From Clostridia bacterium (GTDB taxonomy: Bacteria > Bacillota > Clostridia > Oscillospirales > CAG-272): DNA of 58,498 nucleotides. The notes below the pieces were generated by a model. It was not told the origin of the DNA. It worked only from the letters and a program-made list of their open reading frames with translations, and ran no database searches. Of this stretch, positions 13,494-51,470 are shown piece by piece. Both the position numbers and the translations under genes were made by a program. The stretch is from contig JAFTQX010000019.1 of the NCBI GenBank assembly GCA_017462545.1, positions 1-58,498 of the forward strand. The letters are read 5' to 3'. The first letter of the stretch is position 1, and each line of letters opens with the position of its first letter.

Positions 13494-13500
13494 ATCGGAT

Positions 13501-15849: not shown

Positions 15850-15852
15850 GAG

Positions 15853-36270: not shown

Positions 36271-36300
36271 AAAAAAGCCGCACACAAAGGTGCGGCTTTC
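36271..36300 (-). terminator. Terminator of giant protein A-peptide operon
   Basis: AAAGCCGCAC...GTGCGGCTTTTTT on the minus strand. Confidence 0.8.
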
Positions 36301-36314
36301 CCCTATGCAATAGC

Positions 36315-36431
36315 TTAAAAATCGAAAATGCTCGAAAGCTTATCGATTGCAAGCTCGTTTTCATCGGAGGCCATCAGAACGTCCGAGGTCAACACAAGAA
36401 TTTCACAAAGCGGTGCTTCGTATTTTTTCAT
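36315..36431 (-). CDS. 38-aa YxxP-motif peptide, copy 1 (MKKYEAPLCEILVLTSDVLMASDENELAIDKLSSIFDF)
   Basis: SD AGGAGG directly after the upstream stop; paralog at 46552-46668 differs mostly at synonymous sites. Confidence 0.88.
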   Translation of the reverse strand: MKKYEAPLCEILVLTSDVLMASDENELAIDKLSSIFDF

Positions 36432-36446
36432 CGTTCTCGTCCTCCT

Positions 36447-39400
36447 TTATGCCTTGTATGCAGCAGCTGCATCATACAGGGCAAGAATGGCGTTTGCTAC
36501 GGGAGCAACAGCGGCATTATCCTGCATGTTGTTACAGTAAGCAGCAACGCTATAGGCAATGGTGTTGGAAATGACAACGCCGTCTGCATCCACAACGCGG
36601 AAGTAGATCAGGCTGTTGTAGTTGGCAGCACCGATGCCTTCGGTAATTGCCTTATAGTAGCCACCTTCCTTGGTAGCGGTGTAAGCAACCTCGGTTGCGC
36701 CGGTGAAGTCAGCATTGTCAGCCATCTGAACCTTAGCACCCTCAACGTCGGTATCAAAGACCAGCTTGAGTGCGATCTTCTCCTCCAGCAGGAGGGAGAT
36801 GCCGATCAGCTTGGCGGTTGCGTTCTCTACCTCTGCAACACGATCAGCAGCGGTGTACTCACCGGCGGTGGTGACCGTCTTCTGCGTCTCAGAGAGACCT
36901 GCATTTGCCAGGTCGGCAGCAGCGATCTCAGTGTTGAAGTACTTCTGTGCAGCAGCAGCGTAGTTCAGAGAGGCAATGGCAACATTGCTTGCCTTGTCGG
37001 CAGTATCGGTGGTAACATAAGCCATCAGCGCGTCCTTCATGGTGGTAACACCGGTAGCCAGGGTTACGGTCTTGCCGTCGATCTCACCGGTTACGGTGTA
37101 GGCAAACTTGTTGCAAACATCCTTGGCAGCGGTGGTGATCACGTCAGCCTTGATGTTCTGTGCAATGCCTGCGGTAGCATTTGCCTCGAAGGTGAAGGAA
37201 TCACCAACCGAAACAGCACCGGTAGCGAATACGGGATACTGCTCCTTGTAGGTAACAGCAGCCTGGAACTCCGTACCGCGGGATGCCCAAGCATCCAGGT
37301 TGTTCGGGTTGCCTACCAGGAAGTCGATGGTGGAGCCGTCACCAACGATCACGTCGGTCAGGGCAGCATCGATGGAGGCAGCAACGTCAGCAGCGTAATC
37401 AACGCCCTGCTCAACCAGTACGTACCAAGCGTCACCTGCCGGCCATACCTTCTGGCAGTCAATGAAGATGGCAACCGTGATGGCGCCGTTCTTCTGCGGA
37501 ACCTCAACGGCATCCTCACCCTCGCCTACGGTCACCTTGGCATTGGTAGCCATGGTCCAGAGCTTGGTAACGTCGATATCGATCTTACCAGCGGAGGGAG
37601 CGGTGTAGCGGTAGCCGCCGATTGCCCAGTTGTTACAAGAGAGCGAGCCGGTAGGACCCCAGTCAGCATTGCCGATCATACGGAAGACGGTGTTCTCGCC
37701 CCAGTACATTGCTCTGTTCGCACCGTCGTTGTAGCCCCAGAAGCCGTCGCTCCAACTGGTGGCAGCTTCGCTGCGGTTGATTGCAAAGTAATCGGTGACA
37801 GCGTTTTCCTTGGTGATCTGCTCCTTCGGGAAGTTGACGAAGGACCTTGCAGGATCGCCGAATACGGGAGCGTAAACAAAGTTCTCGGTCTGGTCTGCAG
37901 CGGGAGCGGAAGGCAGGTTCTCATCCAGACGAGTGGTGAACATGGGATCTACGATAGCGGAATCCAGATCGCACTCGGTGTAAGCCACGGTAGCGGTAGC
38001 CATAAAGCCGCACCTGTTACTGATCCAGAAGCCGGTAGCGCTCTCGTCGTTACGAACGAGGATCTCGATCTCGTCGCCTGCCTGAACGGCAATGCCGGTC
38101 AGCGAGCCGGTCTTTGCGGAGCCGTCCTTCACTGCGAGAGCAGCGATGGCAGCAGCATCCAGCTTGGTGTTGTAGGTGCCGATCGCAGCCCACTTATCGG
38201 AGCTGCCGTAGTAGTTCTCACCCTCGCCCTCAGCCATAGGCCAGATCATTTCGCCGTTATGGAAGACGGCTACGTAACCAAAGGTGCCTGCATTGTGCTT
38301 GGAGAACAGCGAGTTGAGAGAAAGATTCAGCGTGCCGTCAAACTCGGCGGTGTAACGCCAGCCGCCGGTAGTATCCAGCGCCGGGATCACGCCGTAGCCA
38401 TTCGGCCAGCCGTCATGATCCACACCCTTATAAGCGAAGGTCACGCCAGCAGGCTTCTTCCAGATGTCGCCAACGTAGCCGTTGGAGAGCCAGCCGTCAT
38501 TGCCGGTGATGTTCGAAATAACGGTATTGATCTGCGCGCCTGCGGTGTACTCGGTCAGGCCTGCGTGGCTGACCAGATCCCAGCCGCCCGTGAAGGTAGC
38601 CTTATCGCCGGCGGTGGTGCCGTGCTGGGGCTTGTTCATGCCGTTGAGCGGATCAAAGGTAGAGCCGGGCAGATACTCGGTGTAAGTAACCTTCAGGTTG
38701 AAGGCGTTTGCAAAGTCGCCGTTCGACCAGCCGGTCACGTTGACAATATTGCTATCACGCCATACGAATACGAGCTGGTCGCCAACAGCAACCTCAACGC
38801 CGGTAACGGCCTCGTTCTTGGTGCCGGTAGCGTTGTACTTGACACCGGCACCCTCGGTAGCGGCGTCAGCAATGTTGGCACCGGTAGCACCGGCAGCCGG
38901 GTAAACCAGGGTCATGCCGTCTGCATTGCTCTTGTAGATCGAGAAGTAAACGGTTCTCGAAGCAGAGGCAATGGGCGTACCGAAGATGGCATCGATATTC
39001 ACGGTGCCGGCATAGGGAACGGCATAAGCAAAGCCTGCGCCGTAATCCTGGAAGCTCGGTGCCTTGCCCTCGATGTTACAACGGGAAATACCGCAGTCAT
39101 CCAGCCACAGGATACCTACCGGCCAGTTACCGTAGGACATGTAGGTACCAGGGAATCCTTGCTTGCTGACAACGCCGGCATCATAACCGATGAAGGACCA
39201 GCCGTCGGTAAAGTCGGAGAGCAGCGGATAGTAGGTGGTCTTCTCGCCGATAACAGGCCAGTTGGTGCCGTTAGCCACCAGCTCAGAGCCGACGAAGTCG
39301 TATGCGTAAACGGTGTCCTGCGCGATGGGGGCGCTGGTCACCTTGCTATAGGTAACGGTCGGGAACGCGGTGATGTGCGGGTTGTTAACGCGGTTGAAGA

Positions 39401-40556
39401 CGATGTCCACGCGGTCGCCGGCCTTAACAGCCAGGTCGTGCGGGTAGCCGTTCTCTGCGCAGTATGCCTCATATGCGGAGAGCAAGCTGCCGGTCTTGGC
39501 AACCTCGGTTACCGGGCGGCAAAGCGCTCTTACCTGGAGATACTTTTCAAGCTCTTCCTCAGCAGCAGCAACAGCAGCCTCGGCGGTTGCAATAGCAGCC
39601 TCGTCGCCGGTTACCTCTGCCTCTTCAAGAGCGGTCTTGGCAGCTGCCAGCTTGTTATCCCAATTGGTTTTCAAGCCCATGTAGTTCTTGTAATCAAAGC
39701 CCAGTGCCTCTACGGTCATGTCAGAGAGGTCAGTGTAGTTCTCCGGAACCTCCTGGCCGAGCAGGGCGAAGTATGCCCAGTCGGTCTCGATATCACCCAC
39801 GAAGGTGGTCTCGGTGTTCTGGTTCTGGTTGTTGTACAGGAAGGTGTAGTTGGTACCGGTGACAGGGTTGTTCTTTACCTTCTGGCCGGCAGCCGATGCG
39901 GGCCATACGATGACGCCGTTGATGGCGATGGCCATAGACGTATCCGAGAATACGCAGCCGTCGGTGTTACGGTCAATGCGCAGAGCCTCAAAGTCTACGT
40001 CGATGACACCGTTGGCAGGTACGTTGTAGGAGAGGGTAAGCATACCCCTCTTCTGGGTAACCATGCGGCGCTCGCCCAGGTAGATACCGCCGTAGGTCCA
40101 GAGGCCCTTGTTCTCAAGGATGTCGTACGTGTTAACGGTTTCGAACAGGTCGTACGCATTGTCGATGTACGAGCCTGCGGTCCAGCCGCCACGGTAGCCG
40201 TCTAGGCTGGTCTTGCTGGTGTAAAGCGGCCAGTTGGTCGTAGGGCTGAAGGTGGACTTCTTCTCCAAGAGATAGAAGGTCACATCGGCAGCGGCCTCAC
40301 CAATCATGGTAGATGCCTCATAAATGGCACCTGCGGGGGTAATGACGTACCAACCGAACGCGTCGGAGGGTACCTCGGGAACGGTAAACTCCAGCGTTGC
40401 GCCGGTTACCGTCTGCGTCGATACTGTGGTGCCGTTGCCGTCGATAAACGTAACGGTAGCGGTCGTCTCCTCGGCGAATACCGGCAGAGCCATTGCCGGA
40501 ACCAGCGTGAGAAGCATGCACAGCACGAGCACAAGGGAAAGTACACGTTTTTGCAT
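36447..40556 (-). CDS. Giant secreted repeat protein A (~1369 aa)
   Basis: Signal peptide MQKRVLSLVLVLCMLL..VFA; four beta-rich repeats (NG..WP / GD.I.F); C-terminal NY.AAAQ.YF..YSVA.Y module. Confidence 0.85.
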   Translation of the reverse strand: MQKRVLSLVLVLCMLLTLVPAMALPVFAEETTATVTFIDGNGTTVSTQTVTGATLEFTVPEVPSDAFGWYVITPAGAIYEASTMIGEAAADVTFYLLEKKSTFSPTTNWPLYTSKTSLDGYRGGWTAGSYIDNAYDLFETVNTYDILENKGLWTYGGIYLGERRMVTQKRGMLTLSYNVPANGVIDVDFEALRIDRNTDGCVFSDTSMAIAINGVIVWPASAAGQKVKNNPVTGTNYTFLYNNQNQNTETTFVGDIETDWAYFALLGQEVPENYTDLSDMTVEALGFDYKNYMGLKTNWDNKLAAAKTALEEAEVTGDEAAIATAEAAVAAAEEELEKYLQVRALCRPVTEVAKTGSLLSAYEAYCAENGYPHDLAVKAGDRVDIVFNRVNNPHITAFPTVTYSKVTSAPIAQDTVYAYDFVGSELVANGTNWPVIGEKTTYYPLLSDFTDGWSFIGYDAGVVSKQGFPGTYMSYGNWPVGILWLDDCGISRCNIEGKAPSFQDYGAGFAYAVPYAGTVNIDAIFGTPIASASRTVYFSIYKSNADGMTLVYPAAGATGANIADAATEGAGVKYNATGTKNEAVTGVEVAVGDQLVFVWRDSNIVNVTGWSNGDFANAFNLKVTYTEYLPGSTFDPLNGMNKPQHGTTAGDKATFTGGWDLVSHAGLTEYTAGAQINTVISNITGNDGWLSNGYVGDIWKKPAGVTFAYKGVDHDGWPNGYGVIPALDTTGGWRYTAEFDGTLNLSLNSLFSKHNAGTFGYVAVFHNGEMIWPMAEGEGENYYGSSDKWAAIGTYNTKLDAAAIAALAVKDGSAKTGSLTGIAVQAGDEIEILVRNDESATGFWISNRCGFMATATVAYTECDLDSAIVDPMFTTRLDENLPSAPAADQTENFVYAPVFGDPARSFVNFPKEQITKENAVTDYFAINRSEAATSWSDGFWGYNDGANRAMYWGENTVFRMIGNADWGPTGSLSCNNWAIGGYRYTAPSAGKIDIDVTKLWTMATNAKVTVGEGEDAVEVPQKNGAITVAIFIDCQKVWPAGDAWYVLVEQGVDYAADVAASIDAALTDVIVGDGSTIDFLVGNPNNLDAWASRGTEFQAAVTYKEQYPVFATGAVSVGDSFTFEANATAGIAQNIKADVITTAAKDVCNKFAYTVTGEIDGKTVTLATGVTTMKDALMAYVTTDTADKASNVAIASLNYAAAAQKYFNTEIAAADLANAGLSETQKTVTTAGEYTAADRVAEVENATAKLIGISLLLEEKIALKLVFDTDVEGAKVQMADNADFTGATEVAYTATKEGGYYKAITEGIGAANYNSLIYFRVVDADGVVISNTIAYSVAAYCNNMQDNAAVAPVANAILALYDAAAAYKA

Positions 40557-40607
40557 GATGAAAGATTCCTTTCTTGTAATTTTTGGGGAAGATACCTCTT
40601 CGAGCAT

Positions 40608-40636
40608 ATGATACCATATCTTTTTTGAAAAGTCAA
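40608..40636 (-). promoter_or_regulatory. Sigma-A promoter for giant protein A
   Basis: TTGACT-17 bp-TATCAT with extended TG. Confidence 0.6.
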
Positions 40637-40677
40637 GTCCCTATTGAAATTTTATGAAAGCACCTGTACGGCAAAGT

Positions 40678-40707
40678 AAAACGCCCTTCCAAGCGGAAGG
40701 GCGTTTT
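40678..40707 (-). terminator. Intrinsic terminator
   Basis: AAAACGCCCTTCC-aagc-GGAAGGGCGTTTT. Confidence 0.75.
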
Positions 40708-40710
40708 GCT

Positions 40711-42738
40711 TTATTCTACAAACAAAATGCGATAGCCGTAGGCACCGAGCGAGAAGGTGAAGCCGAGGTCGGCCTCCTTCTCCATATCACGCACGCGCGT
40801 CACATCCTCCGCAAAGGAGATCGTCACGCTTTCTACCGGCGTGGCGGAAATGTTGACAGCAAAGGCGAGCAGCTGCTGCTTGCCTGACAGGGTGGTATAG
40901 CGGTAGTAGCTGACCTTGACCTTTTCGTGCGAGCTTTCTGTCTTGTTTTCCCAGTAGGGCATCCATTCCGATTGCGCGATCGGGAAGGCATCAAAGATGC
41001 GCCACACGCAGCTCATCAGATCAAGCGGGTGACCGATATCGTTCGGGCGCGGGAGAATGCCGTGCAGGATGGAGCAGGAGAGCGCCTGCTCAAAGGTCCA
41101 GAGCGGACGGTTCTCATAGGCGATGAACTCAACCGGAGCACCGATGTTGCGGCCGATGTACTCGGCGCGGAAGTAGTCGAGGTTCAGGTCGGCCTTTTGC
41201 CCCTTCATCAAGGCAAACTGCAGCGTCTCGCCGTACCAGTTCTGATGAATGTAGGGGATGGCGGTGAAGTTGATAAAGCCGTAGCCGTGCACGTTGATCA
41301 TGCCGCCGCGGGATTCTACCACATCATAGAGCCGCTTGAAGAGCGAGCGCACCGCGCGGATCGCGTAGCGGCCATGCACATTGCCCGCGCGGTCTACGCG
41401 ACCGCAGCCATGGGCTTGGTTTGTACAGCAGCGCAAATGATGCGTGCCATCGAGATACACACCGTCGGTGTGGCACTCGTCCATGATCTTTTCTACACCG
41501 TGGATGAAGATATCCTCATATTCCGAGCCGTAGCAAACCACATAATCACGCTGGAAGGGGACGCGCCACCAGCCGCCCTCGCTCTTGCCATTGGTGTTTT
41601 TGAGAAGGACGCGATCCTTTAAGCGGCTCCACTCCGGCGACATGCTGGAAAACTCGTATCCGAAATAGGTCAGCAGCTTGATGCCGCGCTTATGGCACTC
41701 GTCTGCGATATAGCAGACCTGCTTTTTCGTAAACTCGGAGAGGTCAAACCAGTTCTGCGATTTGTTCCACTTCTCATGCAGGATCAGCGTGGTCACGCCC
41801 ATCTCCTTGAGCTTATCAAAGCGATTTTCGGCAGAAAGGAAATCAATATAGTTACCCTTGATCTTGATGCCGCAATCGAGGTGGAAGGTGTTGCTGATAT
41901 AGGGGTTTTTGGGAAAAGGCTTGACGGGGGTTGCGTGGAAGCCGAAGTGGAAATCGATGGGGCGGTAGGTCAGCATGCCGCGTGCCGGATCGCCATCCCA
42001 TTCGGCGGGGTGCGAATCAAGCAGGCGCAAACGCAGGATCAGCTGCTCTCCCTCTCGTACCAGCTCGATGGCGCGGCTTGCCTTCTCCGGCTGCCAGTAG
42101 AAATCCTCCTCCGAGAAGAAGCCAAGGCCCCGCTGCTCGTTGCCAAGCCAAAAAAGTGCCTTGTGGGGGAGCGAAAAATCCTGCTCCGGCAGACGGCCGC
42201 TGGTGGTCATATCGTGCATGGGCAGCGTGCTGCCATCGGCAAGATAGATCGCGCTGTTGGGGTACATATGGTAATAGGGCATGGCCTCGGCGCGCAGGGG
42301 CAGCTCGATCCACAGCTGATCTAATTTAAATAAGGTAGGCTTTGTTTCGGCAATGCCGAAGACCTGTGCCACCGTCTGCCCGCGCGGCATGACCTTGCAA
42401 TCAATCTCCATGCAGCCATCATAATCAATGGTATAGCAGGTATCCACGATAAAGCGATCGGATTGCTTGGCACCGCAAATGATGATCTGCTCATCCGAGC
42501 GCGTCTGCACAAAGCTCTCGCTTTCGTTTGTCGCATAGTCGGTATCCCAATTGGACGGCTCGCCGTCCTCCACCGCCACCACGCGCATGGGCCCGGCAAG
42601 CAGCTCTACCCCCTGCGAGCGAATGGAGGTGATCATCCCATCGACGCCGATGGTATAGGTACGGTCAACGACCGCGATCGTATGTGCCCCGTTTTCGCTT
42701 GTGGCGCGCACGGGGATAAACGGATGCGGAATCTTCAT
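40711..42738 (-). CDS. Putative cytoplasmic glycoside hydrolase-like protein (DUF6067-like, TIM barrel)
   Basis: N-terminal beta-rich domain; ATPVKP, CHKRGIKLLTYF and DGVYLDG motifs; no signal peptide. Confidence 0.55.
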   Translation of the reverse strand: MKIPHPFIPVRATSENGAHTIAVVDRTYTIGVDGMITSIRSQGVELLAGPMRVVAVEDGEPSNWDTDYATNESESFVQTRSDEQIIICGAKQSDRFIVDTCYTIDYDGCMEIDCKVMPRGQTVAQVFGIAETKPTLFKLDQLWIELPLRAEAMPYYHMYPNSAIYLADGSTLPMHDMTTSGRLPEQDFSLPHKALFWLGNEQRGLGFFSEEDFYWQPEKASRAIELVREGEQLILRLRLLDSHPAEWDGDPARGMLTYRPIDFHFGFHATPVKPFPKNPYISNTFHLDCGIKIKGNYIDFLSAENRFDKLKEMGVTTLILHEKWNKSQNWFDLSEFTKKQVCYIADECHKRGIKLLTYFGYEFSSMSPEWSRLKDRVLLKNTNGKSEGGWWRVPFQRDYVVCYGSEYEDIFIHGVEKIMDECHTDGVYLDGTHHLRCCTNQAHGCGRVDRAGNVHGRYAIRAVRSLFKRLYDVVESRGGMINVHGYGFINFTAIPYIHQNWYGETLQFALMKGQKADLNLDYFRAEYIGRNIGAPVEFIAYENRPLWTFEQALSCSILHGILPRPNDIGHPLDLMSCVWRIFDAFPIAQSEWMPYWENKTESSHEKVKVSYYRYTTLSGKQQLLAFAVNISATPVESVTISFAEDVTRVRDMEKEADLGFTFSLGAYGYRILFVE

Positions 42739-42958: not shown

Positions 42959-43016
42959 TCAATGCCGGAGAATCCCGCATACGTATCCTACTGCCACATG
43001 ATAGGAGATAGAGATC

Positions 43017-45659
43017 ATGGAAGAAAAAGTATACCCCCCGGTAGACGGGACGGAGAGCCTTGCCGCGGCCATTGCCGTCGCCCGCAAGGCGCAAAAGCAA
43101 TTTGCCACCTACACGCAGGAGCAGGTTGACCGCATTTTCTTGGCTGCTGCCCAAGCGGCCAACCAACAGCGCATTTCGCTTGCGAAATTGGCTGTTGAGG
43201 AGACCGGTATGGGCATTGTGGAGGATAAGGTCATCAAAAACCACTATGCCTCCGAATTTATCTACAACAAATACCGCGATACAAAGACCTGCGGTGTCAT
43301 TGAGGAGGACCGCGCGGCCGGCATTCAGAAAATCGCAGAGCCGATCGGCGTGATCGCGGCGGTCATTCCCACCACCAACCCGACCTCCACCGCCATCTTC
43401 AAAACGCTGCTGGCGTTAAAGACGCGCAACGGCATCATCATCTCACCCCACCCGCGTGCCAAGAAATCCACCATTGCCGCCGCCCGCATCGTGCTGGAGG
43501 CTGCTGTGGCGGCCGGCGCGCCGGAGGGCATCATCCGCTGGATCGATGTGCCCAGCCTGGAGATGACCAACATGGTCATGAAGGAGGCTGACATCATCCT
43601 CGCGACCGGCGGCCCCGGCATGGTAAAGGCGGCCTATTCCTCGGGCAAGCCGGCCCTGGGCGTAGGCGCGGGCAATGTGCCCGCCGTGATCGACGAGAGT
43701 GCCGACATCCTGCACGCCGTCAACTCGATCATTCATTCCAAAACCTTTGATAACGGCATGATCTGCGCCTCGGAGCAGTCGGTCATCGTGCTGGATCGCA
43801 TTTATGACAAGGTGCGCGCCGAGTTTGCCGCGCGCGGCTGCTATTTCTTAAAAGAAGACGAGCTGGAAAAGGTCAGAAGGACCATCATCATCAACGGCGC
43901 GCTCAACGCCCGCATCGTCGGGCAGCGCCCCGTGACCATTGCCGCGCTTGCCGGGGTCAGCGTGCCGGAGGGCACCAAGATCCTGATCGGCGAGGTGGAG
44001 AGCGTTGAGCTTTCTGAGGAGGTTGCGCATGAAAAGCTCTCGCCCGTGCTGGCCATGTACCGCGCGCGCGACCTGGAGGATGCCTTCTCCAAGGCCGAGC
44101 GGCTGATCGAGGACGGCGGCTACGGCCATACCGCCTCCATCCACCTCAACGAGGTCACGGCACGAGACGTGCTTGCCGCCTATGCCGCCAAGATGAAGAC
44201 CTGCCGCATTGTGGTCAATATGCCCTCGGCACAGGGTGGCATCGGCGATATCTACAACTTTGCGCTTGCCCCATCGCTGACCCTCGGCTGCGGCTCTTGG
44301 GGCGGCAACAGCGTTTCCGAAAACGTGGGGGTCAAGCACCTCTTAAATATCAAAACCGTGGCTGAAAGGAGAGAGAATATGCTTTGGTTCCGTGCGCCGG
44401 AAAAGATCTATATCAAGAAGGGCTGCCTGAATGTCGCGCTTGACGAGCTTGGCAAGCAGATGGGCAAAAAGAAGGCCTTTATCGTGACCGACAGCTTTCT
44501 CTTCCAAAACGGCCACACCAAGCCGATCAGCGACAAGCTGAACGAAATGGGAATTTCCCACACCACCTTCTTTGAGGTCGAGCCTGACCCCACCCTTGCC
44601 TGCGCCAAGGCAGGTGCCGAGGCCATGCGCGCCTTCGCCCCGGATGTCATCATCGCGCTGGGCGGCGGCTCGGCGATGGACGCAGCCAAGATCATGTGGG
44701 TGCTGTACGAGCATCCGACCGTCGACTTTATGGACATGGCCATGCGCTTTATGGACATCCGCAAGCGCGTGTACACCTTCCCCAAGATGGGTGAAAAGGC
44801 CTACTTTGTGGCCATTCCCACCTCGGCGGGCACCGGCTCGGAGGTCACGCCCTTTGCCGTCATCACCGATGAAACGAGCGGCGTGAAATACCCCCTCGCC
44901 GACTATGAGCTGCTGCCGAACATGGCCATCATTGATACCGATTTCCACATGACCGCGCCCCGCGGGCTGACAGCCGCCTCCGGCATTGACGCGGCGACCC
45001 ACGCGCTGGAGGCATACGCCTCGATGCTGGCCACCGACTATACCGACGGCCTTGCCATCCGCTCGCTGCAAACCGTCTTCAAGTACCTGCCCCGCGCCTA
45101 CGAAAACGGGGGGAGCGACGTGGAGGCACGCGAAAAGATGGCCAACGCCGCCACCATGGCGGGCATGGCCTTTGCCAACGCCTTCCTCGGGGTCTGCCAC
45201 TCGATGGCGCACAAGCTGGGGGCCTTCCATCATCTGCCGCACGGCGTGGCCAACGCGCTGATGATCGACGAGGTGCTGCGCTTTAACGCAGCCGAGGCGC
45301 CTGCCAAGATGGGCACCTTCTCGCAGTACGGTCACCCGCACACGCTTGCCCGCTATGCCGAGGTGGCTGACGCGCTTTGCTTAGGCGGTCGGACGGACGA
45401 GGAAAAGCTGGAAAACCTCATCCGCGCGCTGGATGCATTGAAGAAAACGGTCGGCATCAAGCCCACCATCCGCGACTACGTGCCGGACGAGGAGACCTTC
45501 CTCGCCACGCTTGATGAGATGGTAGAGCAGGCCTTTGACGATCAGTGCACGGGCGCGAACCCGCGCTACCCGCTGATGAGCGAGATCAAGCAAATGTATC
45601 TGAACGCCTACTACGGCAAGACCTTCGAGGAGAAGGCAATGCCGGGAGCGGCAGAATAA
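43017..45659 (+). CDS. adhE: Bifunctional acetaldehyde-CoA/alcohol dehydrogenase
   Basis: PTTNPTST, GMICASEQ, GCGSWGGN linker, GGGSAMD and HSMAHKLG motifs. Confidence 0.98.
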   Translation: MEEKVYPPVDGTESLAAAIAVARKAQKQFATYTQEQVDRIFLAAAQAANQQRISLAKLAVEETGMGIVEDKVIKNHYASEFIYNKYRDTKTCGVIEEDRAAGIQKIAEPIGVIAAVIPTTNPTSTAIFKTLLALKTRNGIIISPHPRAKKSTIAAARIVLEAAVAAGAPEGIIRWIDVPSLEMTNMVMKEADIILATGGPGMVKAAYSSGKPALGVGAGNVPAVIDESADILHAVNSIIHSKTFDNGMICASEQSVIVLDRIYDKVRAEFAARGCYFLKEDELEKVRRTIIINGALNARIVGQRPVTIAALAGVSVPEGTKILIGEVESVELSEEVAHEKLSPVLAMYRARDLEDAFSKAERLIEDGGYGHTASIHLNEVTARDVLAAYAAKMKTCRIVVNMPSAQGGIGDIYNFALAPSLTLGCGSWGGNSVSENVGVKHLLNIKTVAERRENMLWFRAPEKIYIKKGCLNVALDELGKQMGKKKAFIVTDSFLFQNGHTKPISDKLNEMGISHTTFFEVEPDPTLACAKAGAEAMRAFAPDVIIALGGGSAMDAAKIMWVLYEHPTVDFMDMAMRFMDIRKRVYTFPKMGEKAYFVAIPTSAGTGSEVTPFAVITDETSGVKYPLADYELLPNMAIIDTDFHMTAPRGLTAASGIDAATHALEAYASMLATDYTDGLAIRSLQTVFKYLPRAYENGGSDVEAREKMANAATMAGMAFANAFLGVCHSMAHKLGAFHHLPHGVANALMIDEVLRFNAAEAPAKMGTFSQYGHPHTLARYAEVADALCLGGRTDEEKLENLIRALDALKKTVGIKPTIRDYVPDEETFLATLDEMVEQAFDDQCTGANPRYPLMSEIKQMYLNAYYGKTFEEKAMPGAAE

Positions 45660-45673
45660 AGGAGGGTGCCATT

Positions 45674-46423
45674 ATGAAGCTGGAAACCGTCATCGCCCGC
45701 AGCCGCGGCAAGACCGTCTACCGTGACGGCGATAACTGCATCAAGGTATTTGACGAGGGCTATTCCAAGGCCGACATTCTCAACGAGGCAACCAACCAGG
45801 CACGCATTGAGGAAACGGGGCTGAACATTCCCCGCATCCGCGAGGTCATGATGATCGAGGGCAAGTGGGCGATCGTATCCGATTATATTCCCGGCAAGAC
45901 GCTTGCCGCCCTGATGGAGGAGCACCCGGAGCGACGGGAGGAATACCTTTCCCTGTTTGTTGACCTGCAGCTCTCCGTGCTGAAAAAGACCAGCCCGCGC
46001 CTCTCCAAGCTGCGCGACAAGATGCGGGATAAGATCTCGCAGACATCGCTTGACGCCACCACCCGCTACGAGCTGCACGCGCGGCTGGAGGGGATGAAGC
46101 GGCACAGCAAGCTCTGCCATGGTGATTTCAACCCCACCAACATCATCATCCGCGAGGACGGCACGCCCTTTATCGTAGACTGGGCGCACGCCACGCAGGG
46201 CAACGGCGCAGCTGATGCCGCACGCACCTATCTGCTCTTCTGCCTTGGGGGGCAAGAGGAGATCGGCAAGCAGTATCTGGACATTTACTGCAAAAAGAGC
46301 GACACCGCCCGCCAGTATGTGCAAAAGTGGATGCCCATTGTCGCGGCCTCACAGTCGGTCAAGGGCAACGAGCACGAGCGAGAATTTTTGCTCTCCTGGT
46401 GCAACGTGGTGGATTACGAATAA
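45674..46423 (+). CDS. APH/choline-kinase-like phosphotransferase
   Basis: SD GGAGG; CIKVF, LCHGDFNPTN and IVDW motifs. Confidence 0.85.
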   Translation: MKLETVIARSRGKTVYRDGDNCIKVFDEGYSKADILNEATNQARIEETGLNIPRIREVMMIEGKWAIVSDYIPGKTLAALMEEHPERREEYLSLFVDLQLSVLKKTSPRLSKLRDKMRDKISQTSLDATTRYELHARLEGMKRHSKLCHGDFNPTNIIIREDGTPFIVDWAHATQGNGAADAARTYLLFCLGGQEEIGKQYLDIYCKKSDTARQYVQKWMPIVAASQSVKGNEHEREFLLSWCNVVDYE

Positions 46424-46509
46424 ACCGAACGCCCGTGGCAATGCCACGGGCGTTCGTTGCCTGCTCCCCTTCCCTCTGCGGACCGTCAAAGACGCCGATC
46501 CCTACAACG

Positions 46510-46540
46510 AAAAAAAGCCGCGCCCACGGGCGCGGCTTTT
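46510..46540. terminator. Bidirectional terminator (ends giant protein B-peptide operon)
   Basis: AAAAAAAGCCGCGCCC-ac-GGGCGCGGCTTTT. Confidence 0.8.
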
Positions 46541-46551
46541 CTCTTGCTGGA

Positions 46552-46668
46552 TTAGAAATCAAAAATGCTGGAGAGCTTGTCGATAGCAAGCTCGTTTTCA
46601 TCGGAGGCCATCAGCACATCCGAGGAAAGAACAAGCAGCTCGCAAAGCGGTGCTTCATATTTCTTCAT
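46552..46668 (-). CDS. 38-aa YxxP-motif peptide, copy 2 (MKKYEAPLCELLVLSSDVLMASDENELAIDKLSSIFDF)
   Basis: SD AAGGAGG just after the upstream stop; 36/38 identical to copy 1. Confidence 0.88.
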   Translation of the reverse strand: MKKYEAPLCELLVLSSDVLMASDENELAIDKLSSIFDF

Positions 46669-46687
46669 GGTTCTATCGCCTCCTTTT

Positions 46688-49600
46688 TTATTCTGCGGGG
46701 GTTGTAAATTCAATTTCCAGCGCGGCAGAGCTCTTACCGTAGATGCTCTCTGCCACCACCATGGCGGTGTAGGTCGTGCCTGCCGTCAGACCGGTGACGG
46801 GGAGATTGTTGGTCTCCGGCTCGGCCTCGCCCAGCCAGTACCAAGAGTTCTCCTTCTTGAAGTACACAATGTTACCGGCCTCGTCTACGACCACGATGTA
46901 GTAGGCCGAAACCACGTCGTCCGAAACGCTATCGTAAACGTGGGCGATCGGGGCGGTCACGGTTGCGGTGGTTGCGGTCGCGCTGACCGTCAGCTTATCG
47001 GTTGCGGCAAAGACGGGAGCCAGCGCATCGTTTTGACGAGCGGTGGTGTAGGTGAAGTTCTCGGTCGACTGGCAAACGGCGTTGCTGTCGATCACCCACT
47101 CCTGGCCGATCTCGGAATCATGGAAGAAGTCATAGCGCTGCATACGAATGACGTTGTTCGAGTCGATCGTCATAAATACGCCCTGCGAAACCTCGTAGCC
47201 GTCAGAAAGCTTACCGCCAACCGACCAGCTACCGGTCGTGTGCGTGTAGAAGACCTTCGAGCCTGCCGTACCCAGATCGACGTTGGTAAAGTCCTTCTGC
47301 GAGATACGGGTAGGCGAGTTCTGCTTGTTGTGCGAGTGGCCGGAGAACCAAACCACCTGCGGGTACTTGGCCATCTCCGCCTTGCCCTCAGCAGACAGGC
47401 CGAAGGGATTGTTCCCGCTTTCGCTGAAGTAGCCAACGTGCGAGTACACGAGAATGGGCGCGTTCGGGTTGCCGGCAGCTACGTTTGCGTCATAGGCCGC
47501 CTTCACCTCACGGAGCAGGAATTCCTCGCCCTTCTCGTAGCCATAGGCCGACATATCCTTGTTGTATGCAGGAGAATCTCCATCCGTACGCTCGGAAATA
47601 CCGATGATGTGGACACCATTGATCACGATGTGGCTGTCTACGTTATCAAGCTTCTCGGTCATGTTGAAGGGAATCTTGTTCACGTCGCCCACGCCGTCAC
47701 CGTATGCGGCACCAACGCTGAGCATATCCTGGAACATGGTAAACACGTCCTTGACCGTTGCATCCGAGTTGATGTTTTCATCCTGCCAGCCGTAGATGTA
47801 GTGCTCGTGGTTACCAACCACCACGCCAACATCGGTCTTCTCCGGATCGACGTACTGGTTCATGATCTTCAGGAAGGTCTTGTACTGGCTTGCATAGCCC
47901 TCGTTGGTCAGGTCACCGGCAATGGTAATGCCGTCAACCGGTACGCCGTAATAGGTGTTGGCCGTTTGCAGAACGTCAGCCAGCTTGCCGGAGGCGTTGA
48001 CACCGCCCTCCTCACCGATGTGGGTATCCGAGATAAAGAGGAAGCGGGCAACGATCTCGGCCTCCTCGCCGCCCTTGTTTTCGCCAACATAGTTGTCAAC
48101 AGCGATGCCCAAGGTCTGCAGAGCGGCAACGATGCCGGCCTGTGCGGTCTCGGACGCGGTGCGAACGAAGTAGGAGGCAACGCTGTAGGTGATGTCACCA
48201 GTTACGGGGTTGCCGTCTGCGTCACAAACGCGGAAGGTGTAGGTATCACCAAAGCGGCTGTAGGGGATGGAGACATAAGCGGCAAGGTAGGTGCCGGTCG
48301 TGTCTTCCATACGGGTAGAAAGCGCGATCTGCTTGCTGGAGCCATCCGTAACCAGATACAGCTCGCTGTAATTGGAGAGAGGCTCGCCAACTGCATCAAT
48401 ATGCAGCTTAAGCTGAACGGTATCGTTGAGCACCAGGCTCACGCCGCTGAAGAAGTAGCTCTGTCCGTCTACCTTCGTCTGCGTGTAGGCGTCGGTAGCG
48501 GCGGGGGGCTCAAAGGAGATCTCGTCGGTCACGCCGGCGTTGGCAAGCGCGTCAGTCTTGTAGTTAAAGTAGGTCTGTGCCTCAGCACCGTAGGCAAGGG
48601 TGGCAAGTGCCAGATCCTTGATCTTCTGGTCCGTGGTCACGCCGATCAGTGCCTTAAAGTAGTCGGCAAGCGAGGTCGTGCCGGTCTTCAGCACAACATT
48701 CTCGCGCGCGGTGCCGTCCGGCATTTGTACCGTACCGGTGACCGTGTACTTGATCTCCTCGGTCATCTGCTTGGCGGCAAAGCCGGAAATAGTTGCATCC
48801 AGCGTCTTGGCACCGAATACGGGCGTGCCAACCGTCGCGTTGGTCGCGGTGGTGGAGAGCGCCAGCTTCAGAGAAGCAGCCTCCACATAAGGCATAGAGC
48901 CCTGCTGTACGTACATGTTGCCCGTGGTCTTGACGCTGACGTTCGCAGCCAGGTCAGAGCCGAGCGAAGCGGAGGCAGAGGCATCTGCCGACAGCACGCG
49001 GCTGTAGGAGATGGTGGCGTCTACGTGGTTGCCGCAGCCCTTCCAAACGTCGCCGGAGGTGTTGAACAGGAACTCGATCTTATCGCCGGCAGCCACGAAC
49101 AGGTTGCTCGGCATGCTGTCGTTGTAAAGCGAGGCCACGTTGGTCTTGGCCTTGGCCGAGTAGGTCAGGCCGTCGGGATTTTCCTCGCTCACCGTCAGCG
49201 CGGTATAGTCTGCGCCAAAGGGCTTTTCCCATGCGCCGTCGGCCGGCCAGATCATCTTGCCGTTGTGGAAGATGGCAAAATTAACGATGGCCGGGTTAGA
49301 CTGACCGCCAGAGGTATAGTTCATGAGCTGGAGCAGCTCAATATCGATCATACCGGTGTATTCTGCCGTATAGCGGAAACCGGCTGCATATTTTGTAGGT
49401 GCCGAAACGGCATAGCGGTTCAAAACGCCCCAGTTGGTATTCTCGTTCCACATGAAACGGGGCTTGCTGCTGATACCGTCATTGCGGCAGAGGTATGCCA
49501 GGCTCTTGCTGCTGTTATAGTAGGAGGCCAGCGCCACGGTGGGGTTCTGCCCGGCAATGGTGGTGGGCAGGTTGGCGTTGGTGCTATTATAATAGGTAAC

Positions 49601-51379
49601 CAGATCCCAAGCACCGGGATAGGTGACCGTATCCTTAAAGGTAGCCGCAGAGATGGTCTCCGGCGGGGTAACGACCGGCTTGTTGCCTGCCTCAAAGAAG
49701 TTGGAGGTATGCTCTACGATCTGGTTATAGGTAACGTTGGCATACACGCAGATACCGTTACCGGCATAAATGCTCTTGCTGGTGTCAAGATTCTTGACAA
49801 TAAATTCAATGGTGCCACCCTTCTGCACGAGCAGATTAGTCGGGATGGTAGCATTGGCTGCCTCGGCATAGTTGGTATCCATGTCGGGGGCCTGGAAATA
49901 GCCGCTCTCCGGCCACACCTGCACGCCGTCGATGTAGATGGCCGCCTGAATACCGCCGGAGTTGGGCATCTCGGTGGTCACCTTGTTGAGCATCTCAAAG
50001 GAAACGTCTACGTAGCCGCCATTCTCTGCTGTATAGCGCCAACCTACCGCATTAGAAGTACCTACAGCAAGCAGCGCGCCGTAACCGCTCTTCAGCCAGC
50101 CGCCAACTTCGCTACCCATGTACAGGTTGCCGCCCGCAAAGCTGCCGCCCGTGGTATAGTACCGGTTGGCAGTGCCATCTTGCTTCGTCGTGGTCATCAG
50201 CTTGCCGGCACCGGCAGCATAGCCGCCGGCATAATATACGGGCACCCAGCCGCCGCTGAAAACGGCCGCGCCGTCAACCACCGTCGGCTGATTAGAGGTA
50301 TCGTTCAGGCTGCTGCTCTGTACGGGCAGCTTGGTGGTGATGTCCTCCCACATCTCGCCAACCTCGGTGTAGGTGACGGCGGGGGCAAGGTCAACGATCT
50401 TCTTGTTGCCTCTGCCAATCACGAACTGAATGGTATCGCCGCCGTTGATCGCCATGTTGGACAGTACGCCATCCGGGATGGAGACCGTATAGGTCGCTTT
50501 CTCGGCAGCCTCGTTGCCTGCCTCGACCTTGTACCAGCCGGCAGCCTCAAAGCCGGTGGTCACGATATCGGTGCCGGCGGCGGCCGTCGGCCATACGATC
50601 TTGCCGTTCACGGCTACAGCCATAAAGACGTGTGCCTCTGCGACCTGGGAGTTATCAACGTAGCCGTTGAAGATCTTGACCGTGTCAAAATTCACGTTTA
50701 CCTTACCGGAGGCCGGCGCGGTGTACTGTGCTGCAACAACGCGGTTTGCGTTACCGGAAAGCACCCATGCATAGCCGGTGGATGCCTTGGTATAGTACAT
50801 ACCGCCGTAGGTCCAGGCAGAGCCGCCATTCCAGATAGCAAGACCGCCGGAGGAGGGCTTGGAGGCCGTGGTAAAGCCGTGGAAGCCGGTGGAGGTCCAC
50901 AAGCCGCCGTTCCAGCCGCCACGGGTGCCGATAATGGTGGTACCGTCTGCCGTGGTGATCGGAATGTTGGAATAGTCGCTATAGAGCGAGAACTTCGAGG
51001 ACTTGGTGACCGGGTAGAAGGTCAGATCCTCGGTGATGTAGGTGCCGTTGTAGGCACGGGCATCGATCATGTTGCCGTTGACGTCGGTCGTGTACCAGCC
51101 AAGGATCTCCTTGGGGTTCACGTTCTTGACGTAGCACTCGGCATCGCTCGGGGTGCCGAAATAGATAAAGCCCGCGTCAAAGGTATACTGGGCAATCAGG
51201 TCGCCTAAAATACCAGGGCCCTTGCCGCTGCCCGAGCGGAAGCTGATGGTCACCTGCTTCTCCTCCTCGGGGGTTGTGGTGGTTGTTGTGTCTGCAGCCA
51301 CGGCGGGCAATACCATGGTGGGAACCATGGGGATGAGCATGCAAACAAGCAACAACAAGCTGAGAATGCGTTTTTTCAT
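46688..51379 (-). CDS. Giant secreted repeat protein B (~1563 aa) with metallophosphoesterase and FN3-like domains
   Basis: Signal peptide MKKRILSLLLLVCML..AVA; three NG..WP repeats; shared YGAEAQTYF/YSVASY module; SDTH, GDLT, GNHE and GHSH motifs; GLTAGTTYT. Confidence 0.88.
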   Translation of the reverse strand: MKKRILSLLLLVCMLIPMVPTMVLPAVAADTTTTTTPEEEKQVTISFRSGSGKGPGILGDLIAQYTFDAGFIYFGTPSDAECYVKNVNPKEILGWYTTDVNGNMIDARAYNGTYITEDLTFYPVTKSSKFSLYSDYSNIPITTADGTTIIGTRGGWNGGLWTSTGFHGFTTASKPSSGGLAIWNGGSAWTYGGMYYTKASTGYAWVLSGNANRVVAAQYTAPASGKVNVNFDTVKIFNGYVDNSQVAEAHVFMAVAVNGKIVWPTAAAGTDIVTTGFEAAGWYKVEAGNEAAEKATYTVSIPDGVLSNMAINGGDTIQFVIGRGNKKIVDLAPAVTYTEVGEMWEDITTKLPVQSSSLNDTSNQPTVVDGAAVFSGGWVPVYYAGGYAAGAGKLMTTTKQDGTANRYYTTGGSFAGGNLYMGSEVGGWLKSGYGALLAVGTSNAVGWRYTAENGGYVDVSFEMLNKVTTEMPNSGGIQAAIYIDGVQVWPESGYFQAPDMDTNYAEAANATIPTNLLVQKGGTIEFIVKNLDTSKSIYAGNGICVYANVTYNQIVEHTSNFFEAGNKPVVTPPETISAATFKDTVTYPGAWDLVTYYNSTNANLPTTIAGQNPTVALASYYNSSKSLAYLCRNDGISSKPRFMWNENTNWGVLNRYAVSAPTKYAAGFRYTAEYTGMIDIELLQLMNYTSGGQSNPAIVNFAIFHNGKMIWPADGAWEKPFGADYTALTVSEENPDGLTYSAKAKTNVASLYNDSMPSNLFVAAGDKIEFLFNTSGDVWKGCGNHVDATISYSRVLSADASASASLGSDLAANVSVKTTGNMYVQQGSMPYVEAASLKLALSTTATNATVGTPVFGAKTLDATISGFAAKQMTEEIKYTVTGTVQMPDGTARENVVLKTGTTSLADYFKALIGVTTDQKIKDLALATLAYGAEAQTYFNYKTDALANAGVTDEISFEPPAATDAYTQTKVDGQSYFFSGVSLVLNDTVQLKLHIDAVGEPLSNYSELYLVTDGSSKQIALSTRMEDTTGTYLAAYVSIPYSRFGDTYTFRVCDADGNPVTGDITYSVASYFVRTASETAQAGIVAALQTLGIAVDNYVGENKGGEEAEIVARFLFISDTHIGEEGGVNASGKLADVLQTANTYYGVPVDGITIAGDLTNEGYASQYKTFLKIMNQYVDPEKTDVGVVVGNHEHYIYGWQDENINSDATVKDVFTMFQDMLSVGAAYGDGVGDVNKIPFNMTEKLDNVDSHIVINGVHIIGISERTDGDSPAYNKDMSAYGYEKGEEFLLREVKAAYDANVAAGNPNAPILVYSHVGYFSESGNNPFGLSAEGKAEMAKYPQVVWFSGHSHNKQNSPTRISQKDFTNVDLGTAGSKVFYTHTTGSWSVGGKLSDGYEVSQGVFMTIDSNNVIRMQRYDFFHDSEIGQEWVIDSNAVCQSTENFTYTTARQNDALAPVFAATDKLTVSATATTATVTAPIAHVYDSVSDDVVSAYYIVVVDEAGNIVYFKKENSWYWLGEAEPETNNLPVTGLTAGTTYTAMVVAESIYGKSSAALEIEFTTPAE

Positions 51380-51441
51380 AACCGTTCTCCTTTTTTCGTG
51401 TTTTTTCGTGTTTTTATGCATAGGGATAGTCTTACAAATAC

Positions 51442-51470
51442 ATCATAGCACAAAGACGAGTTCATTGCAA
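51442..51470 (-). promoter_or_regulatory. Sigma-A promoter for giant protein B
   Basis: TTGCAA-17 bp-TATGAT with extended TG. Confidence 0.6.

What the first reader, a model, noticed from the sequence alone, without database searches (positions are those of the whole stretch)
36271..51470. Two-gene module found twice: giant secreted repeat protein plus a near-invariant 38-aa YxxP peptide
Seen: two operons share one layout, promoter > giant Sec-signal protein (36447-40556; 46688-51379) > AGGAGG within a few nt of the stop > 38-aa ORF (36315-36431; 46552-46668) > AAGCCGC-type terminator. The giant proteins are highly diverged and differ in domain content. The peptides are 36/38 identical, with 14 codons differing synonymously and only 2 conservatively (I/L, T/S), which indicates strong purifying selection on the peptide. 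Established: YxxPxL-like motifs in RiPP leaders (e.g. lasso peptides) are bound by RRE/PqqD domains. Inference: the peptide is an obligate, co-expressed partner of these surface proteins. It could be a trans-processed anchoring or modification tag, or a strand-donating chaperone. No RRE, cyclase or dedicated peptidase lies beside either copy, so any processing would act in trans.
Basis: partly seen in the sequence, partly recalled or inferred. Interest (0 to 1): 0.88.

Follow-up and report, generated by a model that had tools for sequence, protein, structure and literature searches.

The report
Phosphopeptide precursors riding behind giant secreted proteins
The two 38-residue genes are real, strongly conserved members of a large family of small peptides that look like precursors of the recently described linear polyphosphorylated peptides, and here they are unusually scattered around the genome, each tucked behind a giant secreted protein while their processing enzymes sit elsewhere.

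Summary
Both 38-aa ORFs exist at the stated coordinates and are 36/38 identical, with 18 nt differences (14 synonymous codons, 2 conservative); dN/dS is 0.033.

They are not a pair. The 2.0-Mb genome holds 15 family members. Thirteen sit -4 to +20 nt behind a secreted protein that carries one conserved ~210-aa domain, here called A6.

The peptide matches the register of LppA, the precursor of linear polyphosphorylated peptides (LPPs; Popov et al. 2026, PMC13381572): K-18, Y-16, P-13, a predicted cut after L19, and a near-invariant Ser22 at core position 3, the LPP phosphorylation site.

All four LPP enzyme types occur in trans: an HprK-like kinase plus PqqD RRE (contig C64), an archaeal-type signal-peptidase-like protease (C55) and an NTP_transf_5 transferase (C54).

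Across 401 genomes of the order, 50 of 54 peptide-positive genomes carry the kinase, against 84 of 347 peptide-negative ones. In three genomes the peptide gene abuts the kinase gene.

Verdict: a new variant of a known kind, an LPP-like system with dispersed precursors co-located with giant secreted proteins. No modification, expression or binding has been shown. The link to the giants is unexplained and is the interesting part.

The parts
36315..36431 (-). 38-aa LPP-like precursor peptide, copy 1. The predicted leader is residues 1-19 (K2, Y4, P7, D17, L19). The predicted core is MASDENELAIDKLSSIFDF, with Ser22 as the predicted phospho-acceptor.
   Evidence: Translation. dN/dS 0.033 against copy 2. 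Family profile hits. Register comparison with LppA (PMC13381572, sections 6, 8, 11).
46552..46668 (-). 38-aa LPP-like precursor peptide, copy 2 (I11L, T15S).
36447..40556 (-). Giant secreted protein 1 (1369 aa). It has a Sec-type signal peptide, repeated beta-rich modules, and the conserved ~210-aa A6 domain at its C-terminus (window 36450-37094).
   Evidence: No Pfam hit. A6 alignment and HMM. A6 model pLDDT 86.
46688..51379 (-). Giant secreted protein 2 (1563 aa). It has a signal peptide and an internal A6 domain (window 48086-48721), followed by a Metallophos phosphoesterase domain and a C-terminal extension.
36432..36446 (-). Intergenic spacer 1 with AGGAGG 9 nt before the peptide ATG.
46669..46687 (-). 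Intergenic spacer 2 with AGGAGG 10 nt before the peptide ATG.
36272..36300 (-). Intrinsic-terminator-like hairpin (GCCGCAC...GTGCGGC) followed by a T run, after peptide 1.
   Evidence: by eye; partly listed.
46500..46531 (-). Intrinsic-terminator-like hairpin (GCCGCGCCC GTG GGCGCGGC) followed by a T run, after peptide 2.
   Evidence: by eye; not listed by the scan.
40608..40636 (-). Promoter-like site upstream of giant 1 (TTGACT-17-TATCAT, with TG).
   Evidence: consensus match only.
51442..51470 (-). Promoter-like site upstream of giant 2 (TTGCAA-17-TATGAT, with TG).
   Evidence: consensus match only.

Best explanation
The two 38-aa ORFs are translated genes. They encode precursor peptides of an LPP-type pathway (linear polyphosphorylated peptide, a RiPP class).

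Inferred mechanism:
1. Residues 1-19 form a leader. Its K2-x-Y4-x-x-P7 motif is bound as a beta-strand by the genome's single discrete PqqD-type RRE (contig C64).
2. The adjacent HprK-like P-loop kinase phosphorylates the near-invariant Ser22, which is core position 3.
3. A cytoplasmic archaeal-type signal-peptidase-like Ser/His/Asp protease (contig C55) removes the leader after L19.
4. An NTP_transf_5 transferase, encoded in a polysaccharide locus on contig C54, may decorate the phosphate further.

Shown here: the genes, their conservation, the motif register, the gene content, and co-occurrence and adjacency in other genomes.

Inferred only: every chemical step, and the site of cleavage.

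Unusual features: the 15 precursor genes are dispersed, and 13 of them are placed with their own Shine-Dalgarno site directly behind secreted proteins carrying one conserved ~210-aa domain (A6). Peptide output would then be tied to expression of these proteins. Why they are tied is not known.
For: (1) Coding and selected.
- Among 8 full-length paralogues, synonymous sites are near saturation: mean pS 0.79 in residues 23-38, against pN 0.036.
- The window pair has dN/dS 0.033.

(2) A real family.
- A profile search of 1.84 billion representatives gave 63 hits at E<=1e-3. Of these, 61 are proteins of 31-80 aa; the other two, P0009 (4941 aa) and P0057 (199 aa), are tandem-repeat chance hits.
- 96 unnamed or 'hypothetical' small proteins turned up in the 5.8-billion set.
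- Invariant residues are M1, Y4 and P7. D17, S22 and D30 are conserved at >=90%.

(3) Same register as LppA (PMC13381572, sections 6, 8, 11, 16).
- LppA has K-18, Y-16, P-13, nine residues, then position -3, a cut after -1, and phospho-Ser at +3.
- Here that reads K2, Y4, P7, D17, L19 | M20 A21 S22.

(4) Enzymes in trans.
- PqqD scores 66 bits.
- Its 238-aa neighbour has Walker A SGTGKST. Its AF2 model has pLDDT 95.6 and its top PDB folds are HprK/P 1kkm and 1jb1 (E 2e-6).
- The SpI-like protease has invariant G-x-S-M, H and D residues, with Ser-His spacing of 39 as in LppS. Its best family hits are archaeal SPase I and SipW, below cut-off.
- NTP_transf_5 scores 160 bits.

(5) Relatives carry the LPP core arrangement.
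- Kinase followed by RRE and/or SpI-like protease was found in 18 of 33 loci examined.
- An MsbA-like ABC exporter was confirmed in 3 of 3 tested.

(6) Co-occurrence in the same 401 genomes of the order.
- The kinase is present in 50 of 54 peptide-positive genomes and in 84 of 347 peptide-negative ones.
- Ten families (60 genomes) have neither.

(7) Adjacency.
- The peptide gene lies <=1.1 kb upstream of the kinase gene in G243, G248 and G298, which belong to three different families.

(8) RRE plus peptide co-fold.
- Verdict 'weak support': score 0.33 against a best control of 0.02.
- That mark was reached by 58 of 80 solved complexes and 2 of 110 mismatched pairs.
- At a score of 0.60 or under, only 7 of the 80 solved complexes passed, as did both mismatches that passed.
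- Runs agree in >=73% of contacts, and partner pLDDT is >=51.
- RRE-leader complexes are solved, so the pass may reflect likeness.
Against: - The literal LPP precursor motifs (Px9Fx[T/A]; YxxPxVLxHQxIxFETxxS) are not met at -3/-1 (D and L/I instead of F and T/A), nor at H/Q.
- A profile of the peptide family finds no PDB leader chain.
- The RRE profile is closer to the lasso B1 proteins TbiB1 (6e-9), TfuB1 (7e-8) and PbaB1 (4e-6) than to LppB (2e-4). Membership of the published LPP RRE clade is therefore not shown.
- Four peptide-positive genomes lack a detected kinase.
- 84 kinase-positive genomes lack a detected peptide.
- Related genomes are not independent samples.
- In this genome the enzymes are scattered over three contigs. 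No MsbA-like exporter was sought or linked.
- No evidence of transcription or translation of the peptide was obtained.
- The co-fold support is weak.
- No chemistry was measured.
Confidence: 0.7

Rival explanations
1. The peptide is an unmodified structural partner of the giant proteins. It would act as a strand donor, chaperone or secretion factor and bind the shared A6 domain directly. On this view the YxxP resemblance to RiPP leaders is incidental.
For: - All 13 trailing peptides in this genome follow A6-domain proteins, although only 23 frames in the genome carry a full A6 domain.
- The two-gene unit is kept in other MAGs (L026-L028), with peptide type tracking the A6 clade.
- Each peptide has a tight Shine-Dalgarno-coupled position.
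- The core is identical across 8 paralogues despite saturated synonymous sites.
Against: - The peptide has no signal peptide, while the giants are Sec substrates.
- 10 of 23 A6 proteins lack a peptide.
- 16 of 42 relatives' peptides stand alone.
- Three peptide genes abut kinase/RRE genes.
- Across the family the conserved part is the leader-like N-terminus, and the tails vary by lineage.
- At least 16 of the 26 linked relatives' peptides follow frames in which no A6 domain was detected, though only about 490 aa were visible.
- No binding test was run.
Confidence: 0.12
2. The peptides are lasso-peptide precursors. A B1-type RRE, B2 protease and cyclase would thread the core into a lariat, with the kinase acting as a tailoring enzyme as in paeninodin.
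For: - The YxxP leader.
- The RRE profile's best PDB relatives are the lasso B1 proteins TbiB1 and TfuB1.
- HprK-like kinases and nucleotidyltransferases are known lasso tailoring enzymes (PMC7533575 passages; PMC13381572 section 6).
Against: - No Transglut_core3 (B2) hit above cut-off. The only Asn_synthase match covers 37 of 354 model positions, at 23.4 bits (cut-off 21), at a contig end.
- The genome is only 81% complete, so absence is not proven.
- The penultimate leader residue is not Thr in these copies.
- The kinase neighbourhoods in 33 relatives' loci showed SpI-like or CPBP proteases. Only 10 other neighbour ORFs were put through Pfam, and none looked like a cyclase. Cyclases were not searched for systematically in these loci.
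Confidence: 0.05
3. The product is an LPP-like peptide as in the best explanation, but the position behind the giants is functionally neutral. An ancestral gene pair was duplicated together with the giant paralogues, and the peptide merely borrows their promoters.
For: - The giants are paralogues that share signal peptide and modules.
- Peptide type tracks the A6 clade, as expected from co-duplication.
- Peptide-less A6 proteins are interspersed in the tree, consistent with repeated loss.
Against: - The linkage has survived divergence of the giants to about 25% identity and saturation of synonymous sites.
- It recurs in other families of the order behind unrelated long ORFs: 26 of 42 peptide genes.
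- The NTP transferase lies in a sugar-transferase locus flanked by two such giants.
Confidence: 0.13

Closest known systems
Linear polyphosphorylated peptides (LPP; LppA/K/B/S/D/N of Paenibacillus alginolyticus; Popov et al., Nat Commun 2026, PMC13381572; sections 6, 7, 8, 11, 12, 16, 35 read)
   Same: - Small precursors with a conserved N-terminus and variable tails.
- The same register: K-18, Y-16, P-13, nine residues to position -3, and Ser at +3.
- The same enzyme set: discrete RRE, HprK-like kinase, archaeal-type SPase-I-like protease and NTP transferase, with an MsbA-like exporter in relatives.
- Association with polysaccharide loci.
   Different: - Residues at -3/-1 are D and L/I, not F and T/A, and there is no H/Q.
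- The leader is 19 aa rather than 27 aa.
- The RRE is only distantly similar to LppB (profile E 2e-4, behind three lasso B1 proteins).
- The hosts are gut Clostridia MAGs. The paper's main text does not mention Clostridia, and its supplements were not visible to me.
- There are 15 precursor genes, dispersed far from the enzymes. The paper searched only within 5 kb of the BGC.
- 13 of them sit behind giant secreted proteins.
- The enzyme genes themselves are scattered over three contigs.
Paeninodin-type phosphorylated lasso peptides (HprK-like kinase, B1 RRE, nucleotidyltransferase)
   Same: A [Y/W]xxP leader bound by a discrete RRE; Ser phosphorylation by an HprK-like kinase; an NTP transferase as a further tailoring enzyme (as described in PMC13381572 and in PMC7533575 passages).
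   Different: No cyclase or B2 protease was found here. The phospho-site there is the C-terminal Ser of the core. The leader protease here is a Ser/His/Asp SPase-like enzyme.
Prochlorosin-type systems: many dispersed precursors served by one enzyme in trans
   Same: Many precursor genes scattered over the genome, processed by a single enzyme set encoded elsewhere.
   Different: The chemistry differs (lanthionine). There the cores are hypervariable, whereas here 8 copies share one identical core. Prochlorosin precursors are not attached to giant secreted-protein operons.

Membership tests
LPP precursor (LppA-like) | N-terminal leader with a YxxP RRE-binding motif; Y and P essential | tested here: met
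   Y4 and P7 are invariant in 57 aligned family members. K2 at -18 is conserved at >=90% among the 12 paralogues of this genome.
LPP precursor (LppA-like) | Literal motif Px9Fx[T/A], or YxxPxVLxHQxIxFETxxS | tested here: not met
   The spacing is identical (P7 + 10 = D17; Y4 + 18 = S22). The residues differ: D at -3, V at -2, L/I at -1, and no H/Q (against PMC13381572 sections 6 and 16).
LPP precursor (LppA-like) | Ser at core position 3 as the (poly)phosphorylation site | tested here: inconclusive
   A near-invariant Ser (>=90%) sits at the homologous position, S22. Phosphorylation itself cannot be tested with these tools.
LPP biosynthetic system | Discrete RRE (LppB) | tested here: met
   One PqqD gene, 66 bits, at C64:23193-23459. 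Clade membership is not shown: LppB (9x8z) is only the fourth-best PDB hit of the RRE profile.
LPP biosynthetic system | HprK-like kinase (LppK) next to the RRE | tested here: met
   A 238-aa protein 4 nt upstream of the RRE gene. It has a Walker A motif. Its model has pLDDT 95.6 and its top folds are HprK/P. NCBIfam hits to ScmC and HprK_rel_A/B fall below cut-off.
LPP biosynthetic system | Archaeal-type signal-peptidase-I-like leader protease (LppS) with a Ser/His/Asp triad | tested here: met
   The gene is C55:12760-13248. Its best family hits are sigpep_I_arch and SipW, below cut-off. Invariant residues are S43, H82 and D98, with Ser-His spacing of 39 as in LppS S29/H68. It is unlinked to the kinase in this genome, but adjacent in 14 of 33 relatives' loci.
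LPP biosynthetic system | NTP transferase (LppN) | tested here: inconclusive
   An NTP_transf_5 gene (160 bits) lies at C54:5828-7132. That this Pfam family is the LppN type is my recollection. The paper says only 'uncharacterized NTP transferase'.
LPP biosynthetic system | MsbA-like exporter (LppD) | not tested
   Not sought in this genome. Found beside the kinase cluster in relatives L082, L089 and L090.
LPP biosynthetic system | Precursor encoded within or next to the BGC | tested here: not met
   None of the 15 precursor genes lies on the kinase/RRE contig C64 or the protease contig C55. One variant copy (C54:16553) shares contig C54 with the NTP transferase, about 9 kb away. Adjacency to the kinase gene was seen in only 3 relatives.
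Lasso peptide system | Asn-synthase-like cyclase and transglutaminase-like B2 protease | tested here: not met
   No B2 hit above cut-off. The only Asn_synthase match covers 37 of 354 model positions, at 23.4 bits (cut-off 21), at a contig end. The genome is 81% complete.

The most novel reading that the evidence does not exclude
The matured (poly)phosphorylated, possibly glycosyl-phosphorylated, peptide is a dedicated extracellular adaptor for A6-domain proteins. Each giant secreted enzyme or adhesin, which has no recognisable wall anchor, would be co-expressed with a RiPP that binds its A6 domain. That RiPP would tether it to the capsule or wall polymer, or mark it for sorting. A RiPP would then act as a protein-anchoring tag, and this would supply the missing biological function of LPPs.
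Probability: 0.15. Interest if true: 0.85.

Novelty: new variant of a known kind. Interest (0 to 1): 0.62.

Why it matters
LPPs were described only in 2026, and their final structure and biological role are unknown (PMC13381572, Discussion).

This locus extends an LPP-like system to small-genome gut Clostridia. The kinase was found in 134 of 401 sampled genomes of the order.

It also shows an organisation that the published search could not have seen, because that search looked only within 5 kb of the BGC:
- Many precursor genes act in trans.
- One core sequence is held identical in 8 copies.
- Nearly all copies are co-located with giant secreted proteins sharing one uncharacterised domain.
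- An NTP transferase sits in a polysaccharide locus between two such giants.

This gives a concrete, testable lead on what LPPs are for: the cell surface and secreted glycan-active proteins.

It also shows that RiPP genome mining centred on the BGC misses precursors of this kind.

Tried and rejected
- Pfam and NCBIfam on the peptide: no hits.
- Peptidase_C39 in the genome: none. A double-glycine PCAT route is therefore not supported.
- Lasso cyclase and B2: not found.
- Read-through or frameshift fusion of the peptide to the giant: rejected. The gaps put the peptide in different frames (-4 to +20 nt), and each copy has its own Shine-Dalgarno site.
- Immunity protein of a polymorphic toxin: rejected. 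The peptide is conserved while the giant C-termini vary.
- Expression: 6 RNA runs held only 5-10% of the sampled words. Laying 4 of them gave one identical 219-nt contig over 36442-36660, the 3' end of giant 1, and nothing over the peptide. The other pieces were 90-97% alike, i.e. from relatives. This is no evidence for or against transcription of the peptide.
- A6 domain fold: an Ig-like sandwich flanked by helices (pLDDT 86). There was no PDB match at E<=1e-3; the best hits, NPC2 and CBM21 at 7e-3 to 1e-2, are uninformative. The ESM Atlas gave only unnamed clusters, with a recognition score below the useful level.
- Peptide profile against PDB chains: only a chance metacaspase hit at E 1.4.
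- P0009 (4941 aa, 16 weak repeats matching profile positions 3-19) is a tandem-repeat chance hit and was dropped. P0057 was dropped likewise.
- The search for related loci in genome contigs gave only 3 loci.
- Literature searches:
  - 'HprK-related kinase': 0 papers.
  - 'PqqD, S24, kinase, RiPP': unrelated MNIO papers.
  - 'polyphosphorylated peptides, RiPP': only PMC13381572 and a chemistry paper.
  I found no paper that describes precursors behind giant secreted proteins.
- The supplements of PMC13381572 (lists of SpI homologues, taxa and precursors) are closed. They could show that Clostridia or dispersed precursors were already listed.
- The 18-of-33 neighbourhood count uses BLAST at 1e-4 with a few queries and ORFs of >=60 aa not overlapped by longer ones. 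It therefore undercounts short RRE genes.


Full report
OBSERVATION

Both small ORFs are present as described: window 36315-36431(-) and 46552-46668(-).
- Each encodes 38 aa, and they are 36/38 identical (I11L, T15S).
- They differ at 18 nt in 16 codons, 14 of them synonymous.
- Nei-Gojobori values are dS 1.21 and dN 0.04, ratio 0.033.
- Nucleotide similarity ends at the Shine-Dalgarno site upstream. Downstream it survives only in the terminator stem.
- Each ATG lies 15 or 19 nt after the stop of a giant ORF (1369 and 1563 aa from the MQKR/MKKR starts), with AGGAGG 9-10 nt upstream.
- The giants begin with a Sec-type signal sequence, judged by eye with no predictor run.
- They are 25-29% identical over shared stretches.
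- Promoter-like hexamers precede both giants, but such sites are barely enriched over shuffles.

IT IS A MULTI-COPY FAMILY, NOT A PAIR

tblastn and profile searches of the window's own assembly (2.0 Mb, 78 contigs, 81% complete) found 14 copies. A 15th, with YEAA in place of YEAP, turned up by inspection.
- Thirteen copies lie -4 to +20 nt behind a long secreted protein.
- One is a second tandem copy on C17.
- One stands alone on C65.
- Eight copies share the identical core DENELAIDKLSSIFD[FL], although synonymous sites are near saturation. For residues 23-38 mean pS is 0.79 and pN 0.036. For residues 1-22 the values are 0.70 and 0.26.

This rules out a non-coding conserved element and recent gene conversion.

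All 13 upstream proteins contain one conserved ~210-aa domain (alignment A6).
- An A6 HMM finds 23 frames with a near-full-length domain in the genome: 13 with and 10 without a trailing peptide.
- The domain models as an Ig-like sandwich flanked by helices (pLDDT 86). It has no convincing PDB or Atlas relative.
- The giants are otherwise Pfam-dark, except for C-terminal enzyme domains: Metallophos in two, GDSL in one and SASA in one.

THE WIDER FAMILY

- A profile of the 12 paralogues found 63 representatives at E<=1e-3 in 1.84 billion proteins. Of these, 61 are 31-80 aa; two are repeat artefacts.
- A second search found 96 small proteins, all unnamed or 'hypothetical' and without Pfam domains.
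- The family consensus is MKKYxxPxxELLxLxxxDVLMASDENE followed by lineage-specific acidic tails.
- M1, Y4 and P7 are invariant. D17, S22 and D30 are conserved at >=90%.
- In 401 genomes of the order, 54 have a match, concentrated in a few families: f25 22/25, f27 4/5, f17 12/26.
- Of 42 peptide genes examined in relatives' loci, 26 trail a same-strand frame of >=200 aa and 16 stand alone. For 24 of the 26 the gap is -1 to 30 nt; for the other two it is 48 and 72 nt.

THE PROCESSING MACHINERY IS IN TRANS

The genome has one PqqD/RRE gene (C64:23193-23459, 66 bits).
- Directly upstream lies a 238-aa protein with Walker A SGTGKST.
- Its AF2 model (pLDDT 95.6) matches HprK/P best: 1kkm and 1jb1 at E 2e-6, followed by PEPCK.

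In 33 loci around its homologues in relatives:
- The kinase is followed by an RRE and/or a ~150-aa protease in 18 loci.
- A CPBP protease follows in 3 loci.
- An MsbA-like ABC exporter was confirmed in 3 of 3 tested.

The protease has invariant G-x-S-M, H-R and G-D motifs. Its best, sub-cut-off, family hits are archaeal-type signal peptidase I and SipW.

The own genome has such a protease at C55:12760-13248. It also has an NTP_transf_5 gene (160 bits) at C54:5828-7132. That gene sits next to a sugar transferase and between it and two giants.

LINK BETWEEN PEPTIDE AND MACHINERY

- In the same 401 genomes, the kinase is present in 50 of 54 peptide-positive genomes and in 84 of 347 peptide-negative ones.
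- Relatedness inflates any statistic on these counts.
- In G243, G248 and G298, which belong to three different families, the peptide gene lies <=1.1 kb upstream of the kinase gene.
- Co-folding the RRE with the peptide gave 'weak support': score 0.33 against a best control of 0.02.
  - That mark was reached by 58 of 80 solved complexes and 2 of 110 mismatches.
  - At a score of 0.60 or under, only 7 of the 80 solved complexes passed, as did both mismatches that passed.
  - Runs agree in >=73% of contacts, and partner pLDDT is >=51.
  - RRE-leader complexes are solved, so this may reflect likeness.

COMPARISON WITH THE KNOWN

PMC13381572 (Popov et al. 2026; sections 6, 7, 8, 11, 12, 16 and 35 read) defines linear polyphosphorylated peptides.
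- Core genes: SpI-like LppS, RRE LppB, HprK-like LppK, an NTP transferase LppN and an MsbA-like LppD.
- Precursors carry K-18, Y-16, P-13 and Px9Fx[T/A]. They are cleaved after T-1, and Ser3 of the core is polyphosphorylated.
- The function is unknown, and the BGCs often lie in capsule loci.

The peptides here have the same register: K2, Y4, P7, D17, L19 | M20 A21 S22. The residues at -3/-1 differ.

The RRE profile is nearer to lasso B1 proteins than to LppB: TbiB1 6e-9, TfuB1 7e-8, PbaB1 4e-6, LppB 2e-4.

I therefore file this as an LPP-like sister variant, not as a proven member of the published clade.

No lasso cyclase or B2 protease was found.

WHAT IS NEW

- The precursors are many, dispersed and remote from the enzymes. 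The paper searched only within 5 kb of the BGC.
- One core is kept identical in 8 copies.
- 13 of 15 copies are co-located with A6-domain giant secreted proteins.
- In a FastTree of 31 A6 domains (no support values, midpoint root), peptide type tracks the A6 clade, and peptide-less members are interspersed. This fits long co-inheritance with repeated loss. It does not show co-evolution.

LIMITS

- No expression data cover the peptide.
- No chemistry was measured.
- The genome is incomplete.
- The paper's supplements were closed.

Noticed in passing
G000 contig C54:12370-16550 (outside the window): The giant gene preceding the C54 peptide variant is split into two overlapping frames: 12370-13236, which carries the signal peptide, and 13200-16550. 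This is either a frameshift or an assembly error.
   Followed up: no
G000 contig C15:43166-43315 (outside the window): A 15th family member, MKNNTKKPYEAAE..., has Ala in place of the otherwise invariant Pro of YxxP. It still sits behind an A6-domain protein and before a terminator.
   Followed up: partly
G000 contig C65:31491-31664 (outside the window): A stand-alone 57-aa variant peptide is transcribed divergently from the start of the C65 giant, whose own 3' end carries another variant peptide.
   Followed up: no
window 38259-40205(+) and 46565-51208(+): Very long antisense ORFs (648 and 1547 aa) run opposite the two giants. They are most likely shadow frames caused by the giants' codon composition, not genes.
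   Followed up: no
window 40711-42738(-), 43017-45659(+), 45545-46423(+), 34483-36063(-): The genes between and beside the two modules are a GH123-like glycoside hydrolase, a bifunctional AdhE-type aldehyde/alcohol dehydrogenase, an APH-family phosphotransferase and an MFS transporter. No RiPP enzyme lies in the window.
   Followed up: partly
relatives' contigs listed: Many peptide hits in relatives lie within a few hundred bases of contig ends, for example at positions 2-70, 18-86, 50-118 and 59-130. This suggests that the adjacent giant repeat genes break assemblies, so copy numbers are underestimated.
   Followed up: no
L073 (G298:C45) 4892-5941(-): In this relative, a protein with three SLH (S-layer homology) repeats lies between the peptide gene and the kinase gene, flanked by two large secreted proteins.
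   Followed up: no
G000 contig C64:22597-23169(-): A 190-aa multi-pass membrane protein with no Pfam or NCBIfam match follows the RRE gene in this genome. In relatives, the SpI-like protease or a CPBP protease occupies this position.
   Followed up: partly
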